From NCBI GenBank assembly GCA_049724395.1, contig JAUGWO010000042.1:310001-374000 (forward strand): a stretch of DNA of 64,000 bases, given 5' to 3'. The position numbers were made by a program, and so were the translations under genes. Positions 2,319 to 16,302 of the stretch are shown here, piece by piece; the stretch's first letter is position 1, and each line of letters opens with the position of its first letter. Below the pieces are notes generated by a model that was given only the letters and a program-made list of their open reading frames with translations, made no database searches and was not told the origin of the DNA. The stretch comes from Spongospora subterranea f. sp. subterranea. Taxonomy: Eukaryota.

Positions 2319-4132
2319 CTATGAGACTAAGTATTCCGCTAAATCATCAGTGTCCTCGATATCGCGAAGATGTGCAAGGTCACGCCTGTTTTTCGTACAA
2401 CACGTCCAGATCGTGGTTGCAAAGTAGACTAATAACATGGCGATGTTTGAAAAGAATAATAATCCGCCAAGAAGGGGCATGTTGTCAGATAGTAATTGAT
2501 CCAATTTGAATAACTCTGAAACTTGGCAATTTCTTCCTGCATCATTGAACTGGCAAGGTTGATTGCGACCGTCATCTCCGACAACTGTCTGGCTGCCAAA
2601 CGACGCATAGTGTGGAGCAAGTACGAGAGTTTGGACATTGACAGCTAATAAAACAAATACAATTAACCATACAGCCATCAGCAACGCATTTTGTTTAGTG
2701 CGATAAGCTCGAATATTGTAAAGCTATTGTAGAGTCAAGTTAGCAGTTCGAATCGAAGCGTACTATGATTATCACCTTTATGAAAACGATGCGAACCCCG
2801 AGCTGGACTAAACCGGTTAAAGTTGCCAAGAATAAATATAGGGCTATGAAAGCGAAGCAAATAAAATCCAAGGGGAAAGCGAGAGATGCATAGCTGAGAA
2901 GCATGTCGATAGGGTTGGGCAGAGTTTGGTCACTCTTGTAGCCGCAGAAGAAGCCGCACTTGGAGTTGATTACTTTATCGGTGACGCTTAGTACCAATGA
3001 TGTGGCAATCAACACTGAGCATAAAAAAAACAGACAGCCTACCAAACATCGTCCTAAATTGGCCAATGAAGGCGAGCTGGGCGATTGTTGAGCGATAGCG
3101 TAATTGTCACAATTGAGAGCTAGTTGCGCCTCTCGATGCTGCAACTTGGCCAGTTCTATGTTGATGAGTTAGATGCAAAAAAGCCTTGTATAACTGACAA
3201 ACCCAGCCGATCTTCGCGAGACCATGCACTTTGCGGAAGCGACACATATCGGGCTTGGAGCTGCTCTTCTTGGGAATGTAGCTTAACAAGTTCCGAGTCT
3301 TGGTTGGGGGTTGAAGATGCCAGAGTTCTTGAAGGAGATGTTTTTCTTGATTCAAACATTATGATAGGAAGCCAGGCTAGACCATATGCCTAAAAAAAAT
3401 AAAAAAATTACCCAATGCTGTAATGAGCGTGGCCTCACTCCTTACAGAATATGTCATCCATCCAAGATGACCAATTGCGATCATTATTCCCATAATGACG
3501 GAAAAAATGTCCAATAATCGCGATTTATTGTCCTCTTCCAGCAAGTGGTGAAGATCGAAAAGGACTAAGGCTGAAATTAAAAAAACAAAAGCTGCGACAA
3601 AACTAATCGTATATTTGCACGATCTATAGGCTCGAGGAAGCGACTCGTTCATGCCATCTTCTTCTTCATAATAAAAGTATGCAAAGGGCAACATCGCGAA
3701 CGCGGATATCGCTAGAAAAGAGTATATTCCTGAATATTGGCATCTCATAGATCAGGTACTGAAACAGGATGGCGTTCAGAATATATTCAACATACCTAGA
3801 TAAAGAACCTTGACGACATCATGGCCATCTGGCGTTGATTTGCCAAGAAAATAAACATCTACTGGCAAAAGGAACCTGAATAGTGATAGATTAGCAGCTA
3901 AATTAAGCACTCAAACAATGCATAACTGTACATTGCACATAATGATGCGAAAACAGTTAAAGTAGCAATGGATTGTGTCACGAAAGATCTTTCTTTCACA
4001 TCCGTATACACATGGATGCAGAAAATACTTCCTAACAACAGCTACCAGAAAAAGAGCGCATAAGAATAATGGTTGTCGTTCAAGCCATTCAATTACCATA
4101 AAAACAACGGGGAGAACAAAAACGAGAATCAT
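2319..4132 (-). CDS. LMBRD1: LMBR1-family membrane protein (LMBD1-like lysosomal cobalamin transport escort), multi-exon
   Basis: Exon peptides LPFAYFYYEEEDG, CGFFCGY..LPNPID..FPLDF, LAPHYASFGSQ; multiple TM segments; short GT-AG introns. Confidence 0.75.
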
Positions 4133-4559: not shown

Positions 4560-5090
4560 CTAGCGAGCCTCAGAATTTTCCGATTGTCGTGACAAATTGG
4601 TTTTGCCTCCGTAATATTCAAGAGATAGCATGACTGTATATATGATGTGCACATACCAACGCAAATGGGAATTGGGGTCCTGAAGAAGCCGGTGCATGGT
4701 TCTACCATAACTGCACACATTAGCAGATTTTGCTTTGCGATGCATTCTGATGAAGTTTGTGTGCCGAAACAATGTCCCAGAACTGATTCCTGCCTCGATC
4801 TCGTCCACAACATGGATTGCAGAATTAACTGGCATGAATGAGAACATATCGCAGATTCCTGATAGATTGTGGATGTGTGCACAAGGGATGGATATAGGTT
4901 GCTCAGATTCCCTGACGTCGAGTGACAGGTAGAAGATGAATATCGCCAACAATACAATACATCCGATTTCATGCAGCCATTGCAACTTTGATTTAGTCCA
5001 TTCGGCTGATCCAGCACCGAGCTGTACAGATACTGTAACCTGATCATGTTGAACGTGAACGAAAACCATTGATAATGGCAGTATATACAA
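4560..5090 (-). CDS. Hypothetical protein fragment with one predicted TM segment
   Basis: 176-aa ORF with a hydrophobic stretch (IGCIVLLAIFIFYL); no recognised family. Confidence 0.25.
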   Translation of the reverse strand: MYILPLSMVFVHVQHDQVTVSVQLGAGSAEWTKSKLQWLHEIGCIVLLAIFIFYLSLDVRESEQPISIPCAHIHNLSGICDMFSFMPVNSAIHVVDEIEAGISSGTLFRHTNFIRMHRKAKSANVCSYGRTMHRLLQDPNSHLRWYVHIIYTVMLSLEYYGGKTNLSRQSENSEAR

Positions 5091-5640
5091 TGATCAAGAT
5101 AGAGTTGACGATCGGGTTCAGCGGTACCTCATCTCAATACTTACAACATTTTCGCTAGGTGGTTGAATTCATAACAATTACAGGTCAATTACACATAAAA
5201 AACTCGTCTGACTTCCGTCAGGCGATGCCCTATGGTAAAAACGGTGTGTCTACTAAGTCAATGAAAAATTGGTTGGGATAACCCGTGAACTTTAATGTCG
5301 CATCATTCTCTTTAAATTTTTACTCGATATTAGTCTGATCGATGTACCGTGTGCTCGAATCTGTTTCGATAAGTATCTTGGAGATCTTTCCTAAGATTCG
5401 TCACAATTAGACCCACCTTCATTGACGTTCCCCTTTGCGATCAGTATTTGCTGTATCCATCTAGACCTGGTTCCTGAGTGAGCCCCGACTCCTGACCCCC
5501 ATTTTCAGAGAGTCACTTGCGCTGCTGTCGCTGATTAGTACACGGGATTAGTCTATGTCCGCTTATTTCCCTGGATCTCCGTGACAATCTCGGCATTTGA
5601 TCAACACACTACACTTCCTTTATAGCCAATATATAGTGGC

Positions 5641-8431
5641 ATGAGCGAGGCAGACGACGATGAAGCGGATATTTTGCATAAAGCAGCCAACACACATGAG
5701 TTTATTGCAGTTTTAACTATAATGATTACGCTGCTGATGCATGTTGCCTCGATAAAGCTTGAGCAAGTACGGTTGCTGAATTGTGCTGAAGTCGAGTCGG
5801 GTTTCAATGTTTTCTAGGTTCTGAAACGACATAAGCATTTGTCGGAGATGCTTCATCATTTGTATAGAGAGCTCATGGTTCTTGGATTAATTTCATTCGG
5901 GCTATTTATTATCGAGTTACATAACTGGGAGGCCTTGCACTATACCAAAACGACATTCGAATCGATTCACATTTTGGTAAACCACTGAAATATTTGATTT
6001 TTACCAAATGATTGAACTTAATCTCAGATTTTTCTTATTGCGTTTGGTTATACTACATTTACTGCCCTGCTGATGACGTTGTCTGTTCGCATATCGAAAT
6101 TCTGGGATGGAATCGAACAACAGCATCATTCAGTATATCTAGAAAACAAGGCCAAGTTTGACACAATTAGGCAGTCAATGGATGAAATGAGTTTTGCTGG
6201 TCAATTTCTTCATTTTCCTTTGTATCTCAGGTGGCGACTCGTTTTTTTAACTAGTTTTATTTTGGTCTGATCCCAGTACTTCAGGTATTTTACACTTGTC
6301 GAGCAGATATCGTTCCACGATCTCCGTCTTCATTTCCTACATTCTAACCATCTTCCACCCTCATTTTCCTTTGCTCGTTATCTTCGAAAATGTAAAAGCC
6401 ACGTGCTTCTGCAGTTTGGGGATATTCACTCGACATGCTGGATGTCATTGGTTGTGCTTGTTATTCTCGATATGCTACAGCGTAATTCTATTGGAATAAC
6501 ATCTGAAAGTCCGTTGACAGCATTTCAATCATGTCGTTATCTGATGTATATCTGTCCAGATTACATTTTCACGTTCTGGCGTATCACGTTTGCTGTTTTA
6601 GGCACGTCCCTTTGCGTAATCCCAGTATCGATATTGTTCAAGACCAGATCTATTTTGTCTGAAATTCTCTGTCACTCTGAAATGATTGACTTTGACCCTG
6701 TTGCCGCAAGGTTTACTGAACAGTTCTGTGTTTTTCATTACACTGCTAACTCTATTCCAAAGGTACTATATCGATCATTGGGGCGATGATGACGACGGAT
6801 CTCATGAAAGCTCACTGTCTTATGCATACGATGATGGAGAAAACCCTCAACAGCCTGTGGTTCACTTTACGTCAGAATCTGCATTAAGGCGTGTTGCAAG
6901 AACGTTTCAAATTGACCATTGGGGTCAAACAGGTGCCTAGTCTTTGCAATATTCATGTATATTACAAATCATCATGACTATATGAGGTTAGGTTCATCGC
7001 CAGATGTTGTCTTATTCCCATCTGCCTCGAATCAACCTCATGTTGAAGCAAGTGAACTCGAACCACCTCGATTAGCGCGGGTTCAATCGGTGCATAATGT
7101 CGAGTTTTCACAAATGAACCTTTTTTGGTTCAACTCACATGTTTTCATGCTTAGGTATTTCTAAAACTATTAGTCTGTTGATGCAAACACTGAACCTAGG
7201 CGCTGTTTAGGCTCATGCAGGTCTGTTTATTTCTTGTGGTATGCTATTTTGCCACCCTTTTTCAATTCCACACGTACATCTTCGCCGGGAGATATTGGGC
7301 TTATCCATTCGCTCTTAGTCAGTGTTTACGTAAATGTGTTTTACTGTAATTAACCGTTGGCGAATCAGTTCCCCTCGGTGTTCTTTTAACCTGTTTTGCA
7401 TGGACCGTTCCAATATATACGATCATCATTCACGTTGGACAGCTAGTCGATCTTGATATCGTTCTTGAAGCCAGGAGAAAGGCATCCAAGCCCGTATTGG
7501 TGGGTCTTGATTTGGCGTTCTCCCATTACGATTGATCAAACTAAAGCAGTATTCAGGATATGACTGCTGTTTCTGTAACACCATCGCAGCTGCGACGCGC
7601 GTCTACATTGATGCTCCTTGACAATTCTGATAGGCTCCGTTTACGGGTAATCGACGGATCTAATCAAATTTGATATCTGGTCAACCGTTTTTGTATCAGG
7701 TATCTATGGCAATATTTGGAGGAAGGTTCCAGATTCTGCTCTTTTGGTGCATTCTGCTTCAAACTGTCATTGTCATGCTTTCTTATTTTGAAAGCCTTTC
7801 CCCGCATCTGTTCTTGCCATATGTCACTCCAATCATCCCAAGTTTATTCGTTATTGAAATGTACATCTTTTGTGTTCTATCGTTAATTTTACTCACCTCT
7901 TGTATTAGGCTTGCGAAATTCTATGCAGCAGGACCCAAATTCTTCACACGATCTGCCGTCGTCGTTTTCGACCTCGTTGTAGTTGTTTGTGCATTCTTTG
8001 CTGCTTTCTTGCAATTATTTGTTCCCAGAGTTTCACCTGTACTCACAGCCTGTGTACTTTTGAGGATATACCAGATCATGCGAGTATCGCGAATCGGCCG
8101 AATCATGCGTCATCAACAAGAATGCCATTTTGAGGGTTAGTGGGGTGGTTTCGTTGAAGTTCCTATATACTGATTTTTTTTAGCTAAAATAGGAGAATCT
8201 GAAATTGAGGAACAAATGAAACGAACGAAGCGAAGAATAATTGAAGCAATTAGCGCTGAGCCGTCATTTCACAAGAAAGCTGCTTCGTACCCTGAGACCC
8301 AGTTTGCTTTAGGACGATCGCGGACAATGCCTGTTTCTCCACAGAGAGTTCCAATGAAATCATTGCGATTGAATTTTGAGATTGCAGATCACATAGAGCT
8401 TCCTGTTCGAGCGTGTGTTCCTGATATCTAA
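5641..8431 (+). CDS. MLO-like membrane protein fused to a C-terminal voltage-sensor-like (S1-S4) domain, multi-exon
   Basis: Spliced peptides match MLO motifs in order (RELMVLGLISF, FESIHILIFLIA, FWDGIE, DLRLHF, FSFARYL, LFWFN, TVPIYTIIIHVG). In-frame introns 7500-7556 and 7647-7699 join it to a 4-TM unit with GPKFF..VFDLVVVV and LLRIYQIMRVSRIGRIMR. Confidence 0.75.
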
Positions 8432-8488
8432 CTTGTAAAAAATAACAACAACTATCTTATTATTATTAAACTACAACTTGTGTAAAGT

Positions 8489-8907
8489 CTAATTATTTAG
8501 CGAATATTTATGCTTGCAATTGAGGCATTCATAGAAAACAGTCTGCCCTTCATCAGCCGAACGCATTTGCATTGTATAGAACGACAGCTCTGGATGTCCG
8601 CAGGAAGGACATTCTTCTTGAACCGTTGCCCTGGTGGCACTAACATGGTCAGAGGATACTAGAGACGTCTTGGCGTGATCCCTGTATGAGCGTGAATCAA
8701 TCTCCTTGGCAACATTAAGATCTGGAAAGAGGATTAAAATGATAGAAATCGACCGAGAAAAAAAGGACCTTCCGCCCGACAAACATGCCCACATTCGTAG
8801 CACGAACTGTTATCGTTTTCATCCGGTAGAGTCATGATTGAATGGCACGAAGGGCAAAAAGACGCAGTTGGGGAAATTTGGAGGAATTTCCAGGAAAGCC
8901 CTGCCAT
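8489..8907 (-). CDS. RPA12: RNA polymerase I subunit RPA12
   Basis: N-terminal Zn ribbon [14 protein letters not shown], one intron, C-terminal TFIIS-like ribbon [24 protein letters not shown]. Confidence 0.9.
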
Positions 8908-10353: not shown

Positions 10354-10605
10354 TCAATCTTAACCTTCGCTGCCCGATGGGAGACATCGGTTCCATAAAT
10401 ACAGAGTTGTGATCCGTGGAGGTGTTACGGGTTACTGATAGTGTGTGGGAGAAAAGAGCGGAGCCGCCTTGTACCAATGACCTGTTGTTGACGCCTTGAC
10501 CCGTCAAGCTGTTGCAGGCCCAGCAAGATCCGTGTTACGAGTGACCTGGGACTGAATTAGACTTTTGCCCACCCCATTCCTGCTACATTAGAAGTTGCTG
10601 GCATA

Positions 10606-12543
10606 ATGAGCTCGGTAAGAGCGCTGCGTCTATTGACTAGACAAAGCAATGCTCTGCATTGCTCCCCGTATTCCACTGGCTTCCGGATATCGCATCATCC
10701 GTTGCGCCCGTCTTCTGTGCTCTCTCGTCCTGTTTATTTACACTGCGCTAGACGATTTCTGTCAACTGATTCAACAGATTCTAAAAACGGAAAGCAAACT
10801 CGCTTGGAAGTCATTAAAGGTGTGTTGGTCCACTACTGGAACGGCTCGAAACTTTTAGCTGCAAATGTATCTACCGCCGCGAAACTCGTACGTAAATCGA
10901 CCACCGGAGAGAAACTCAGCAGGAGAGAAAGAAAATTGTTAGCAATTACGGCTGCAGACTTAGCTCGACTTGTGCCGTTTGCTTTCTTTGTTATAATCCC
11001 TTTCATGTAAGTGGACCTTTTTCCGATATTTTGGTTAGTTTCTCATGCTTTTTAGGGAGTTACTGCTGCCATTTGCATTGATGCTTTTTCCGAATATGCT
11101 TCCATCTACTTTTCAGGACAAGCATAAGAAAGAGGAGAACATGAAGAAACAGTTGAAATTGCGATTGGAGCTTGCTGAATTTTTACAAGAAACAACTGAG
11201 GTGGTGGCGAAAGATATAGAAAAACGGTCAAATAATTCTCAAGAAGCGAAAGAAAAAGCGGAGAGGTTGATCCGGTTGCTTGGCAGAGTGCGGCAAGGAA
11301 AATTTGTCACAAACGATGATCTGCGGGAACTAGCATCTTTGTTTGAAGACCAATTCACTCTTGAACATCTATCACGCGAACAACTTCTCAGTTTGTGTCG
11401 TTACATGGGGTTGCCAACGTACGGAACAGAAACGCGTCTACGTTATGAGCTTCTCAAGAGACTGGACGACATTCGAGATGACGATCGTGCAATCATTGAG
11501 GAAGGAGGAATATTCTCTTTAAATCTTCCTGAGCTACGTTCCGCAGTTCAGCATCGCGGCATGCGAGCGTTAGGTGTTGACGAAATAATTTTGAAAAGCC
11601 AACTGCAGAGCTGGCTTGATCTTTCGTCGAATAAGTCAATTCCGCCACTTCTTCTCATCCTTTCACGGGTGTTTACTTTGAACCAAACGGAGAATCCAGC
11701 AGCTATGGAAGCAATCAAGTCAACATTAGCACAATTTGATGAAAAGATTGTTGAGGAGGCGATTGATGAAACTTTGAAACCAGATGGTCATGCAGAGAAG
11801 CTTGAAGACGTCAAATTCCAGCTTGAATTACTTAAAGAAGAGGAGGCTGATAAGAAAGCCAAGCAGGTAAAAGACGTTGCAGGTGAAAGTCGGGCTAACA
11901 GCAACGAGGTTATTTCGGGATGAATCGGATCCGGAAACGTTATCCAAGATCAAAGATATTGGCGAAGATTTGGCGGTTTTATCAGACGAAAGCGCTGTGG
12001 TTCAAGAAAGGGAAAAATTGCAGCAGCTGACAGCCAAATGGAAAGACGGTGGTTCTTCGGCCAAAGAGCCTACTGTTATTGTTGCGCCGAAGACGACTAA
12101 ACTTGACATAAAGGAGAAATCGTCGGCGAAAGAAGCCGACCCGGCGATATCTGAAATTGAAAACGAAAAGACCATACAAACAAGGTTGCAACAAAAAATT
12201 GGTAACATGCTGGCTGAATTACGCGCCGATATTGACAAAGCGGATTCGAAGATTGGCGATAAGCTAAACGTCCTTGATCGAGATCATGATGGGGTGGTGA
12301 GTGTCAACTTCTTTTTTTTAGTGGTTTCACTGCTTGCTGACCGGCTTTACCTAGATGTCTTACGACGAGGTTGTAAGTGCACTAAAGAACAGCCTCAAAG
12401 ATTGCAAGACTGATGAAGAAGCTCGCGAAATTGTAAAAAAACTAGACATCAAGAAAGATGGAAAAATTGATACTGAAGAGCTTCGAGAATTCATTCGTAA
12501 ATCTAACGGAGCTTCAAATGGCGGATCTGCATCATCGAGATGA
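10606..12543 (+). CDS. LETM1: Mitochondrial LETM1/Mdm38 family protein with C-terminal EF-hands, multi-exon
   Basis: Presequence-like N-terminus; HYWNGSKLL, LSRRERKLL..ADLARLVPF..FVIIPFMELLLP..LFPNMLPSTF; EF-hand loops DRDHDGVVS and DIKKDGKIDTEE. Confidence 0.95.
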
Positions 12544-12797: not shown

Positions 12798-12938
12798 TAA
12801 ATATGGTAGATGGCGGTTGAGTAGTGGTTGGTAACCTGCGGTTTCAAAGTCCTGGTTGCGTGACGGTCCTGAGACCGAGGGATCAGTATTATCAGGTGGT
12901 CAACAACAAATTGACTTTCCAGAATTTGTTGGACCACT

Positions 12939-13562
12939 ATGACTCTCTTTCATTTCATTAACTGTGCTGCCCTTGCCGTTGGTCCACATGTTATTCTACA
13001 ACAGGCACAAGAACAGAACCGACGGTTGTCGTTGATGGGGTTCATGGCGTTCATCACGACACAGTTCCTTCGAATTGTTTTGGTTGCACCTATCATTGAT
13101 ATCGCACCAGCTGTTGTCTCACGATGCTGTGATATAGTTGGTTTTTATATCATAATCTCTGTTTTGGCACCTCGCAATCCTACAACACTTGCCATTTCGT
13201 GGTCGTTTGCAGATTCTTTTTGCTCCAATGCCCTTCATCAGTATCATCTGCTCCGCTCAAGTGAATTCGATTGGTCAACCTTCGGATTGGCATTGTTTTC
13301 GAACACTACCCTGTTTATAATTGTTAGCTTGGCTTTAAGCATAACAAGTCTTCGTCGCAGTCCAAAGAATCTGCCATCTTTTTGCTGTCTCGCATTCAGC
13401 GTTGGCATGTTCATATTCAGCCCTTCACTCATTTCGGTTGTCGACGATCGTCATCCTGTTCTTCCCCACACTATCATTATATTCGCTTCGTTAATAATGG
13501 TTATTTTGGCGAATATTGTTTATTCTGCAGTTGATGGATCCAATGTCAAGAAGGTCAAATAA
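12939..13562 (+). CDS. TMEM147: Transmembrane protein 147 (BOS complex subunit)
   Basis: Signature N-terminus MTLFHFINCAALA..P, AISWSFADS, EFDW; multi-TM 207-aa ORF. Confidence 0.85.
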   Translation: MTLFHFINCAALAVGPHVILQQAQEQNRRLSLMGFMAFITTQFLRIVLVAPIIDIAPAVVSRCCDIVGFYIIISVLAPRNPTTLAISWSFADSFCSNALHQYHLLRSSEFDWSTFGLALFSNTTLFIIVSLALSITSLRRSPKNLPSFCCLAFSVGMFIFSPSLISVVDDRHPVLPHTIIIFASLIMVILANIVYSAVDGSNVKKVK

Positions 13563-14878: not shown

Positions 14879-15134
14879 AATATGTGCGGCGCGGCCATGA
14901 CGTTGGTGGACAGTACAACACTGTCACAACAATTGCACGCACCGCTTCAGAGCCAGGGGCCCTTGGTTATGCGTTACAAACTGAGGGTCGTTGTGAGTTG
15001 TGACTCGCAAACAATATCCCGCTTTGGATATAGAGTTGAGGTGACTCCGGGGATATATAATACCATTGGTCACATTGGCATTGCTTGTGATAGTTTGAAT
15101 ATTTACAATAATCATATACTGATAACCATCAACA

Positions 15135-16302
15135 ATGATCCGCTCTTTAACCGGCGCCGGTTTCCGTATGTTTACCCGGGGTAGTGGCAAACGCTACCTT
15201 CAAACGACTCCAAGGAAAACTACTATGTTGAAGAATTTATTGTCAAGTCCGAATCTTGACTTTATTATGGAAGCGCATGACGGATTAAGTTCAAAAATTG
15301 TCGAAGAAGCTGGATTCAAAGGAATTTGGGGGTCAGGACTTTCAATTTCAGCATCAATGGGCGTTAGAGACAGTAATGAAGCTACATATACACAAGTTAG
15401 TCATGCCAGATTACTGTACGTTGCTGATTCGTTAATCAAGTTCCTAGGTTGTCGAAGTCCTTGAGTTCATGAGTGACGCAACCAAAATTCCAAGTAAGTG
15501 TCCATCAGCTGTCTGCAAACATGGCTAATCATTTCTTTGTTCAGTTCTTCTAGGTAAATATTCAAAACACACTTAATATTTTTTACAGATGTGATTTGCA
15601 GATGGCGACACAGGGTACGGTAATTTCAACAATGCTCGTCGGTTAGTGTCTAAGCTAGAGTCTCGTGGCATCGCTGGAGTATGTCTGGAGGATAAACTCT
15701 TTCCAAAGTCGAATTCTTTGTTATCTGATTCATTGCAACCTCTGGCCGACATCGAGGAGTTTTGCTTGAAAATTAAGGCTTGTAAGGACACCCAAAAAGA
15801 TCCAGACTTTCAAGTTGTTGCGCGTGTCGAGGCATTCATTGCTGGATGGGACGTGAACGAAGCATTGAAGCGCGCAGAAGCTTACAGAAATGCTGGCGTT
15901 GATGCAATTTTGATACACTCGAAACAGGATGACGGAGCTGAGATAACATCTTTCTTGGATGCTTGGGAGTAAGTTGCGCCATTTTTGAGACGGTGCTGGC
16001 AAAATTTATACAGTGTTTATAGAGCACGCCATCCAATTGTCTTGGTGCCTACAAATTATTATCAAATACCTACAAGCCATTGGCGCGAAAAAGGCGTCAA
16101 TCTGATCATCTGGGCTAATCATAACCTCAGGGCATCTATTGCAGCGCAGCAGGCGATATCTAAACAAGTTTTCGCAGAGCAATGTTTGAACAATGCTGAG
16201 GAAAGGATTTGCTCCGTCAAAGAAGTGTTTCGGTTGCAGAATCAGCATGAATTAACTGCTGCCGAAAAGAGATACCTCCCAAACGTAACGCGACGAGCTT
16301 GA
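15135..16302 (+). CDS. pepM: Phosphoenolpyruvate phosphomutase (PEP mutase), multi-exon, with a presequence-like N-terminal extension
   Basis: [50 protein letters not shown], diagnostic [31 protein letters not shown]. Confidence 0.95.

What the first reader, a model, noticed from the sequence alone, without database searches (positions are those of the whole stretch)
5641..8431. MLO-family protein fused in frame to a voltage-sensor-like domain
Seen: MLO-type motifs occur in canonical order across exons, and phase-0 introns (7500-7556, 7647-7699) continue the frame past the last MLO helix into a 4-TM unit with an S2-S3-like GPKFF..VFDLVVVV and an S4-like R-x2-Q-x2-R-x2-R-x2-R-x2-R series, with no pore domain after it. 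Established: plant MLOs are 7-TM proteins reported to act as Ca2+-permeable channels with a C-terminal calmodulin-binding tail, and pore-less voltage sensors regulate other proteins (VSP, SLC9C1) or conduct protons (Hv1). Inference: a voltage-regulated MLO channel in a non-plant eukaryote, a domain-fusion clue to MLO gating.
Basis: partly seen in the sequence, partly recalled or inferred. Interest (0 to 1): 0.8.

Follow-up and report, generated by a model that had tools for sequence, protein, structure and literature searches.

The report
MLO channel with built-in voltage sensor
A protist gene, confirmed by spliced RNA, joins a relative of the plant MLO calcium-channel proteins to a voltage-sensor domain that has no pore of its own, so membrane voltage is predicted to tune this likely channel; the pairing was once listed in a data table but apparently never discussed or tested.

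Summary
The fusion is real. Spliced contigs give 13 exons (5641-8431) and a 719-residue protein identical to a Spongospora subterranea record. It has seven MLO-type helices (Pfam Mlo 27.4 bits, cut-off 24), then a four-helix voltage-sensor domain (VSD) with F558/E561/D583 and five S4 arginines, and no pore. Four other relatives found here carry the same unit. It lacks the Hv proton-channel signature and the plant MLO cysteines and calmodulin Leu/Trp pair. Best reading (0.42): a voltage-modulated MLO-type Ca2+ channel; conduction, sensor movement and coupling are all inferred. Against: the relatives keep only three S4 charges, and the VSD is 16-24% conserved versus 37-49% for the best-kept MLO helices. 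Not wholly new: a 2016 supplement row lists the Plasmodiophora brassicae relative with a 'voltage-dependent channel' domain and 11 helices, without discussion in the text. This scan earlier noted MLO plus VSD-like plus PH proteins in diatoms (untested here). New variant of a known kind; interest 0.6.

The parts
5641..8431 (+). Whole gene, 13 exons, 719-aa MLO-VSD protein (= P0001, UniRef A0A0H5R9K4, S. subterranea)
   Evidence: RNA joints; model identical to P0001; record name
5641..5766 (+). Exon 1, aa 1-42, N-terminus and MLO TM1
5818..5976 (+). Exon 2, aa 43-95; TM2 with E60, M62, G65, S68 (5863-5907), the likely pore-lining helix; short Cys-free loop to TM3
   Evidence: (Mlo E 0.019 on this exon alone); pore role inferred from plant models
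6028..6230 (+). Exon 3, aa 96-163, TM3 and start of cytosolic loop 2
6285..6508 (+). Exon 4, aa 163-237, conserved loop-2 motifs and TM4
6560..6710 (+). Exon 5, aa 238-288, TM5
6763..6932 (+). Exon 6, aa 288-344, variable cytosolic loop 3
6992..7154 (+). Exon 7, aa 345-399, loop 3 ending in the FWF motif
   Evidence: FWF listed as an MLO motif in PMC4824068
7211..7317 (+). Exon 8, aa 399-434, TM6
7369..7499 (+). Exon 9, aa 435-478, TM7 and the conserved post-TM7 helix (HxGQL at 456)
7557..7646 (+). Exon 10, aa 479-508, linker and start of the S0 helix; both flanking introns phase 0
7700..7860 (+). Exon 11, aa 509-562, VSD S1 (W524, Q529) and S2 (F558, E561)
7909..8135 (+). Exon 12, aa 562-637, end of S2 (K565), S3 (D583 at 7970), S4 (R614, Q617, R620, R623, R626, R629 at 8063-8110)
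8184..8431 (+). Exon 13, aa 638-719, cytosolic tail with an amphipathic helix (643-660); no pore

Best explanation
The gene makes one spliced mRNA for an 11-helix membrane protein, an MLO domain followed by a pore-less voltage-sensor domain, which likely works as a Ca2+-permeable MLO-type channel whose opening is predicted to be tuned by membrane voltage. Shown: the single reading frame, both domains, their order, the missing pore, and the same fusion in relatives. Inferred from plant MLOs: subunits would assemble as trimers with TM2 lining a central pore. Inferred from known sensors: S4 (five arginines) would slide past F558/E561/D583. Inferred and weakest: the movement would reach the MLO core through the long post-S4 helix and tail packing on MLO's cytosolic helices, as in SLC9C1, rather than through the TM7-S0 linker, whose length varies threefold. 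On this reading the VSD takes the place in the chain where plant MLOs carry a calmodulin-binding tail and other protist MLOs carry EF-hands. It is probably a modulator whose strength differs between lineages rather than an obligatory gate.
For: One transcript. MLO: Pfam 27.4 bits over cut-off 24, 7 hydrophobic segments in MLO spacing, TM2 M62/G65/S68 spaced like AtMLO6 M63/G66/S69 (mapped by spacing, not by alignment). VSD: 14 of 14 PDB matches at E up to 10 are VSD-bearing proteins; the profile gives TPTE2 E 9e-8 and Cav3.2 E 1.5e-7; the folded domain of relative P0003 (pLDDT 63.6) has Ci-VSP's sensor as top match, prob 1.00, E 0.012, and all 42 listed rows are VSD proteins. S3 Asp, S4 R1 and an S1 Trp align in all five units; S2 F-x2-E-x3-K is kept in P0001, P0002 and P0003 and is seen as F-x2-E-x3-K in the L004 splice. 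Topology fits: MLO ends in the cytosol, where a VSD begins (established). The fusion has persisted at about 30% identity in 4 of 10 other clusters found. Precedent for a VSD behind a transport domain: SLC9C1 (PMC13095418, passages).
Against: No functional data. S4 registers in relatives carry only 3 basic residues of 6 (P0002 R,T,Q,K,R,V; P0003 R,N,R,Q,K,L; P0006 R,V,P,R,R,L), and P0006 has lost the S2 Phe. VSD pairwise identity is 16-24%, like the variable loop 3 (20-27%), against 37-49% for TM1-3 and 38-48% for TM6-7; the tail has 0 invariant columns. The distance from the post-TM7 motif to the S1 Trp is 64-211 residues. P0001 lacks an acidic residue in S1 (Q529) where three relatives have Asp. 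Pfam Ion_trans is not hit; P0002, P0003 and P0013 alone match no VSD in the PDB by sequence. The plant pore residues E56 and T73 would map to H55 and F72. Plant MLO1/5/9/15 needed a kinase partner to conduct (PMC9810639, passages), and trimer pores rest on models.
Confidence: 0.42

Rival explanations
1. The four-helix unit is a voltage-sensor-like domain that has largely lost electrical function and serves as a structural, lipid- or ligand-binding, or trafficking module of an MLO channel gated by something else (tension, Ca2+, phosphorylation).
For: Low VSD conservation and reduced, shifting S4 charges in 3 of 3 relatives with a complete S4; variable linker; voltage-insensitive sensor-like domains exist in TRP and CNG channels (recalled). 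A mechanical gating model is proposed for plant MLOs (preprint 2026.04.10.716904, passages).
Against: P0001 keeps five arginines in strict three-residue register plus F558, E561, K565 and D583, which would be expected to decay without selection (inference). Three charges suffice in Hv1. The extracellular cysteines that the mechanical model needs are absent.
Confidence: 0.33
2. The VSD is itself a conduction path (a gating-pore or proton leak) that locally changes voltage or pH beside the MLO part.
For: A neutral residue at the second S4 position in 4 of 4 complete S4s, and double gaps in P0002 and P0006; double gaps suffice for omega current in Shaker and natural gating pores exist (PMC10651576, passages). 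S1 Asp in P0002, P0003 and L004; a helix after S4 as in Hv1.
Against: The Hv signature fails: no S1 Asp in P0001, Y for W and Q for the second R of RxWRxxR. P0001 has only a single gap. Ci-VSP-type sensors without the Hv signature carry no proton current.
Confidence: 0.12
3. The sensor works, but this MLO is not a channel: voltage moves S4 and changes how the MLO part or the tail recruits partners (for example exocyst or other channels).
For: Plant MLOs are described as either recruiting channels or being channels. The protein is a distant MLO (27.4 bits) and lacks the acidic exit residue and the second pore hydroxyl by spacing.
Against: TM1-TM3 is among the best-kept regions (25 invariant columns of 109) with the M/G/S pore motif retained.
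Confidence: 0.11
4. Two adjacent genes were joined by chance or by assembly error.
For: Contigs are assemblies, not single molecules; exon 10 (90 nt) is shared by both joints; no raw reads were laid.
Against: In-frame GT-AG joints in four apparently separate data sets (P1 and P6 counted once, P2, P3, P7); the same fusion in four other relatives and in the P. brassicae record.
Confidence: 0.02

Closest known systems
[quoted passage not shown] 2016, PMC4824068, Supplementary Files 8 and 9)
   Same: 733 aa, 11 predicted helices, InterPro IPR027359 'Voltage-dependent channel'; its visible first part is plainly similar to P0001 by eye. Very likely the ortholog with the same architecture.
   Different: Only a table row: 'voltage' occurs 0 times in the main text and it is missing from the paper's list of hybrid proteins. 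No transcript support, S4 analysis or wider relatives were given in what I saw. Its S4 was cut off in the copy I could read.
Land-plant MLO proteins (Pfam PF03094; barley Mlo, Arabidopsis MLO1-15)
   Same: Seven helices, TM2 ELM-x2-G-x2-S motif, loop-2 motifs, FWF before TM6.
   Different: No long Cys-bearing first outer loop, no Leu-x2-Trp calmodulin site, and four extra helices in place of the disordered tail.
MLO-EF-hand fusions of oomycetes, alveolates, green algae and Apusozoa (PMC4824068; e.g. P0018, Albugo candida)
   Same: A regulatory module fused after TM7 of a protist MLO; P0018 aligns to the family profile with probability 97.6.
   Different: There the module is a soluble Ca2+ sensor; here it is a membrane-embedded voltage-sensor fold.
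SLC9C1 (sperm Na+/H+ exchanger)
   Same: Same order on the chain: transport domain, pore-less VSD, cytosolic tail; a long S4 helix couples through cytosolic helices.
   Different: Unrelated transport domain; SLC9C1 has a cyclic-nucleotide-binding domain and measured gating currents; neither is present or shown here.
Voltage-sensing phosphatases (Ci-VSP, TPTE2), Hv1 and TMEM266
   Same: Closest sequence and fold matches of the four-helix unit; no pore domain.
   Different: No phosphatase domain; Hv signature absent; the sensor sits behind a seven-helix domain rather than at the N-terminus or alone.

Membership tests
MLO (PF03094) | Profile score above the curated cut-off | tested here: met
   27.4 bits against 24, E 1.4e-6, 3 stretches. 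Relatives P0002 and P0003 alone do not hit it; P0006 does, 34.3 bits.
MLO (PF03094) | Seven helices with large cytosolic loops 2 and 3 and FWF before TM6 | tested here: met
   Hydropathy windows 22-40, 61-79, 92-110, 209-227, 246-264, 395-413, 437-455; FWF in 388-391.
Land-plant MLO | Four invariant extracellular cysteines | tested here: not met
   First Cys is residue 199; the TM2-TM3 loop is short and Cys-free; feature.
Land-plant MLO | Calmodulin-binding helix with Leu-x2-Trp just after TM7 | tested here: not met
   No Trp between residues 447 and 523; feature from PMC10586775. A non-canonical site is not excluded.
Land-plant MLO | TM2 pore residues (AtMLO6 E56, M63, L64, G66, S69, T73) | tested here: inconclusive
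   By spacing only: M62, G65, S68 match; H55, V63, F72 differ.
Land-plant MLO | Oligomeric Ca2+-permeable channel activity | not testable with these tools
   Needs electrophysiology.
Voltage-sensor domain (S1-S4) | Four-helix fold homologous to solved sensors | tested here: met
   E 9e-8; TM 0.55-0.59, under the Atlas bar; relative P0003; prob 1.00, E 0.012. Pfam Ion_trans not hit.
Voltage-sensor domain (S1-S4) | S2 aromatic and Glu, S3 Asp, periodic S4 basic residues | tested here: met
   F558, E561, D583; R614, R620, R623, R626, R629 with Q617. Reduced to three S4 charges in the relatives.
Voltage-sensor domain (S1-S4) | Charge movement with voltage | not testable with these tools
   Needs gating-current or fluorometry recording.
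Hv proton channel | S1 Asp/Glu and S4 RxWRxxR | tested here: not met
   Q529; S4 has Tyr and Gln at the Trp and second Arg positions.
6-TM voltage-gated channel (Ion_trans) | S5-P-S6 pore after S4 | tested here: not met
   No hydrophobic segment after residue 616; transcript ends near 8471-8492 and a convergent gene ends at 8489.
Voltage-sensing phosphatase | Phosphatase and C2 domains after S4 | tested here: not met
   89-residue tail with no Pfam or PDB match.

The most novel reading that the evidence does not exclude
A voltage-gated Ca2+ channel of a new build: three S1-S4 sensors around a trimeric MLO pore made by TM2, the first case of a classical voltage sensor gating a channel with no P-loop pore. 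It would be spread through Rhizaria and, if the scan's diatom notes hold, through other SAR protists, and would give a direct electrical handle on how MLO pores open.
Probability: 0.25. Interest if true: 0.88.

Novelty: new variant of a known kind. Interest (0 to 1): 0.6.

Why it matters
How MLO channels gate is open: 2026 preprints offer trimer models and a mechanical hypothesis, and no MLO structure turned up in the PDB searches. A natural MLO carrying its own sensor could be switched with a voltage clamp, so channel activity and gating could be tested without plant cofactors. It would add a new effector to the short list run by pore-less sensors (phosphatase, Na+/H+ exchanger, Hv1, TMEM266). 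In this organism, zoospore chemotaxis and root attachment are blocked by La3+ and Gd3+ (PMC8921600, abstract), the same ions reported to block plant MLO currents. That makes the gene one candidate among several; a T-type Ca2+ channel transcript is also reported, and nothing here links this gene to zoospores.

Tried and rejected
Full-length AlphaFold2 model from 4 sequences: mean pLDDT 43.3; its Foldseek search gave 0 matches at E up to 0.001; not used as evidence, and it says nothing on MLO-VSD contacts. Trimer job on residues 12-295: score 0.00, no verdict, alignment not used; no evidence either way. Exon-wise Pfam: only two weak Mlo hits among 12 stretches. ESM Atlas: feature scores 0.76 and 0.86 and structure matches under the bar; leads only. 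Raw-read runs X20 and X23: 0 reads laid, no test. X1 and X15 give identical contigs and are counted once. No whole genome is held, so copy number and the organism's other channels were not checked; no second MLO or VSD gene in the window. The deep profile search of 1.84 billion representatives and the VIA fold comparisons never ran, so the family's range is a lower bound and the diatom proteins were not compared. Six of 10 other clusters (P0004, P0007-P0009, P0011, P0012) have no VSD-like unit (best 2.4 bits); P0012 may be incomplete. L002 and L003 end before the region; L001 holds only the first 180 codons of P0003. With the three-sequence profile P0006's unit was marginal (6.9 bits, 1 of 1000 shuffles as high) and is 10.8 bits, 0 of 500, in leave-one-out: the weakest member. 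The L004 splice was chosen by hand with the VSD in mind, so its score is optimistic. Rejected: Hv channel, truncated 6-TM channel, VSP, chance neighbour genes. Literature: no paper describing an MLO-VSD fusion in searches; a diatom Ca2+ channel survey has 0 mentions of MLO. Most subscription papers are not held, and supplement file 1 of PMC4824068 could not be searched.

Full report
Observation. Public contigs laid on 5400-8700 show 12 GT-AG joints. Spliced at these, 5641-8431 is a single 719-codon frame, identical to P0001, a record named 'MLO-like protein, Spongospora subterranea'. The 7499/7557 joint stands in 6 of 6 contig runs and 7646/7700 in 5 of 6. X4 holds one 2236-nt contig from 5605 to 8471; X10 (on record as oligo-dT RNA) and X18 hold single contigs across all six joints from 7150 to 8183. 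X1 and X15 look like one data set, leaving four. X1, X4, X15 and X18 are not on record as RNA, but they lack the introns. Contigs are not single molecules, and two raw-read runs gave nothing, so a small doubt remains.

Anatomy, MLO part. Pfam Mlo scores 27.4 bits against a cut-off of 24. Hydropathy gives seven segments in MLO spacing, then four more. TM2 has M62, G65 and S68, spaced like the pore residues M63, G66 and S69 of Arabidopsis MLO6 (preprint 2026.05.18.725938, parts 1-3 of 4 read); by the same spacing E56 and T73 are not kept. This mapping is by spacing, not by alignment. The extracellular cysteines and the Leu/Trp calmodulin pair of plant MLOs are absent (features from passages).

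Anatomy, sensor part. Residues about 505-630 match only VSD-bearing proteins in the PDB: 14 of 14 matches at E up to 10, best Cav2.3 at 1.2e-4. The four-sequence profile gives TPTE2 at 9e-8 and Cav3.2 at 1.5e-7, 8 of 8 matches. Pfam Ion_trans is not hit. The charge-transfer residues F558, E561 and D583, plus K565, are present, and S4 reads R614, Q617, R620, R623, R626, R629. The Hv signature (S1 Asp, RxWRxxR; PMC10377628, passages) fails. Nothing hydrophobic follows S4, and a convergent TFIIS-type zinc-ribbon gene ends 58 bases after the stop.

Relatives. Protein searches returned 10 other clusters. Four carry the C-terminal unit: P0002, P0003/P0005, P0006 (Cercozoa sp. M6MM) and P0010 with locus L004, where the unit had to be spliced by hand and the contig gives only the start of S4. 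In leave-one-out tests each unit scored above all of 500 shuffles (29.9, 32.4, 46.8, 10.8 and 34.4 bits), while six MLOs without the unit scored at most 2.4. The domain of P0003, folded with a five-row alignment that includes P0001 (pLDDT 63.6), has the Ci-VSP sensor as top Foldseek match (prob 1.00, E 0.012, TM 0.53/0.60); no match reached E 0.001, and all 42 listed rows are VSD proteins. An S1 Trp, the S3 Asp and the first S4 Arg align in all five, which suggests one origin. All named carriers are Rhizaria; three are unnamed. P0003 is probably an intron-free frame (first 180 codons colinear in L001; rest inferred).

Results against a tightly coupled sensor. The three relatives with a full S4 keep 3 basic residues of 6 in different positions, and P0006 has lost the S2 Phe. 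VSD identity is 16-24%, no better than the variable loop 3 (20-27%), against 37-49% for TM1-3, 23-35% for TM4-5 and 38-48% for TM6-7; the tail has no invariant column. The stretch from the post-TM7 motif to S1 is 64, 68, 77, 119 and 211 residues. P0001 is the least degenerate member seen. The full-length model was too poor to show contacts.

How it most likely works. Shown: one chain, MLO then VSD then tail, no second pore. Inferred from plant work: a trimer with a TM2-lined Ca2+ pore. Inferred from sensor anatomy: S4 moves. Inferred by analogy with SLC9C1, which has the same order and couples through a long S4 helix and cytosolic helices (PMC13095418, passages): the post-S4 helix and the amphipathic helix 643-660 pass the movement to MLO's cytosolic face. 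I give this 0.42, a structural or ligand-binding sensor-like domain 0.33, conduction through the VSD 0.12 (PMC10651576, passages), a non-channel MLO steered by voltage 0.11, and artefact 0.02.

What is known. Kusch et al. 2016 (PMC4824068; passages, section 10, supplement searches and parts 150-151 of file 2; file 1 not searchable) list P. brassicae CEP02083 with InterPro 'Voltage-dependent channel' and 11 helices; it is the only row with that InterPro id. The main text never says 'voltage' and the hybrid table omits it. Seven searches found no paper describing the fusion, within a library that lacks most subscription journals. A 2026 preprint still calls MLOs exclusive to plants. Earlier notes of this scan describe diatom MLOs with a VSD-like unit and a PH domain; I could not test them, and no note matched this sequence.

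Verdict. A real, expressed and conserved fusion: a member of the MLO-like family, not of land-plant MLO in the strict sense, with a VSD-fold domain that is not Hv, VSP or a truncated 6-TM channel. New variant of a known kind, interest 0.6; 0.88 if it proves to be a voltage-gated MLO pore (probability 0.25).

Noticed in passing
window 8489-8809 (-): Convergent gene whose last exon has a TFIIS-type zinc ribbon (Pfam 68.4 bits), by recall like RNA polymerase I subunit RPA12; its stop lies 58 bases from the MLO-VSD stop and the transcripts nearly touch.
   Followed up: partly
window 15126-15972 (+): Phosphoenolpyruvate mutase gene, the usual entry step to phosphonate synthesis (recalled); a PEP mutase transcript is also in a spore-germination table for this species.
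   Followed up: partly
window 10561-12413 (+): LETM1-like gene (Pfam 194.8 bits), a mitochondrial cation-exchange family, about 2 kb downstream; no evidence of a link.
   Followed up: partly
window 2319-3751 (-) and 12915-13562 (+): LMBR1-like membrane protein pieces (22.7 bits, under cut-off) and a DUF2053 membrane protein (54.3 bits).
   Followed up: partly
window 4560-5093 (-): 177-codon open frame with hydrophobic stretches, divergent from the MLO gene, no Pfam match.
   Followed up: partly
PMC4824068 Supplementary File 8, Ectocarpus CBJ32356: A 1187-aa MLO-like protein with 10 predicted helices; it may hide a similar extra membrane unit, but its C-terminal part was not visible.
   Followed up: no
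P0001 275-295 and relatives: A conserved 'IDFDP' motif after TM5 and a conserved post-TM7 helix (HxGQL) mark the VSD-bearing group and are altered in the VSD-less MLOs seen; candidate contact sites.
   Followed up: no
P0011 / P0018 (Albugo candida record): MLO with weak EF-hand hits, an example of the known MLO-EF-hand fusion.
   Followed up: partly
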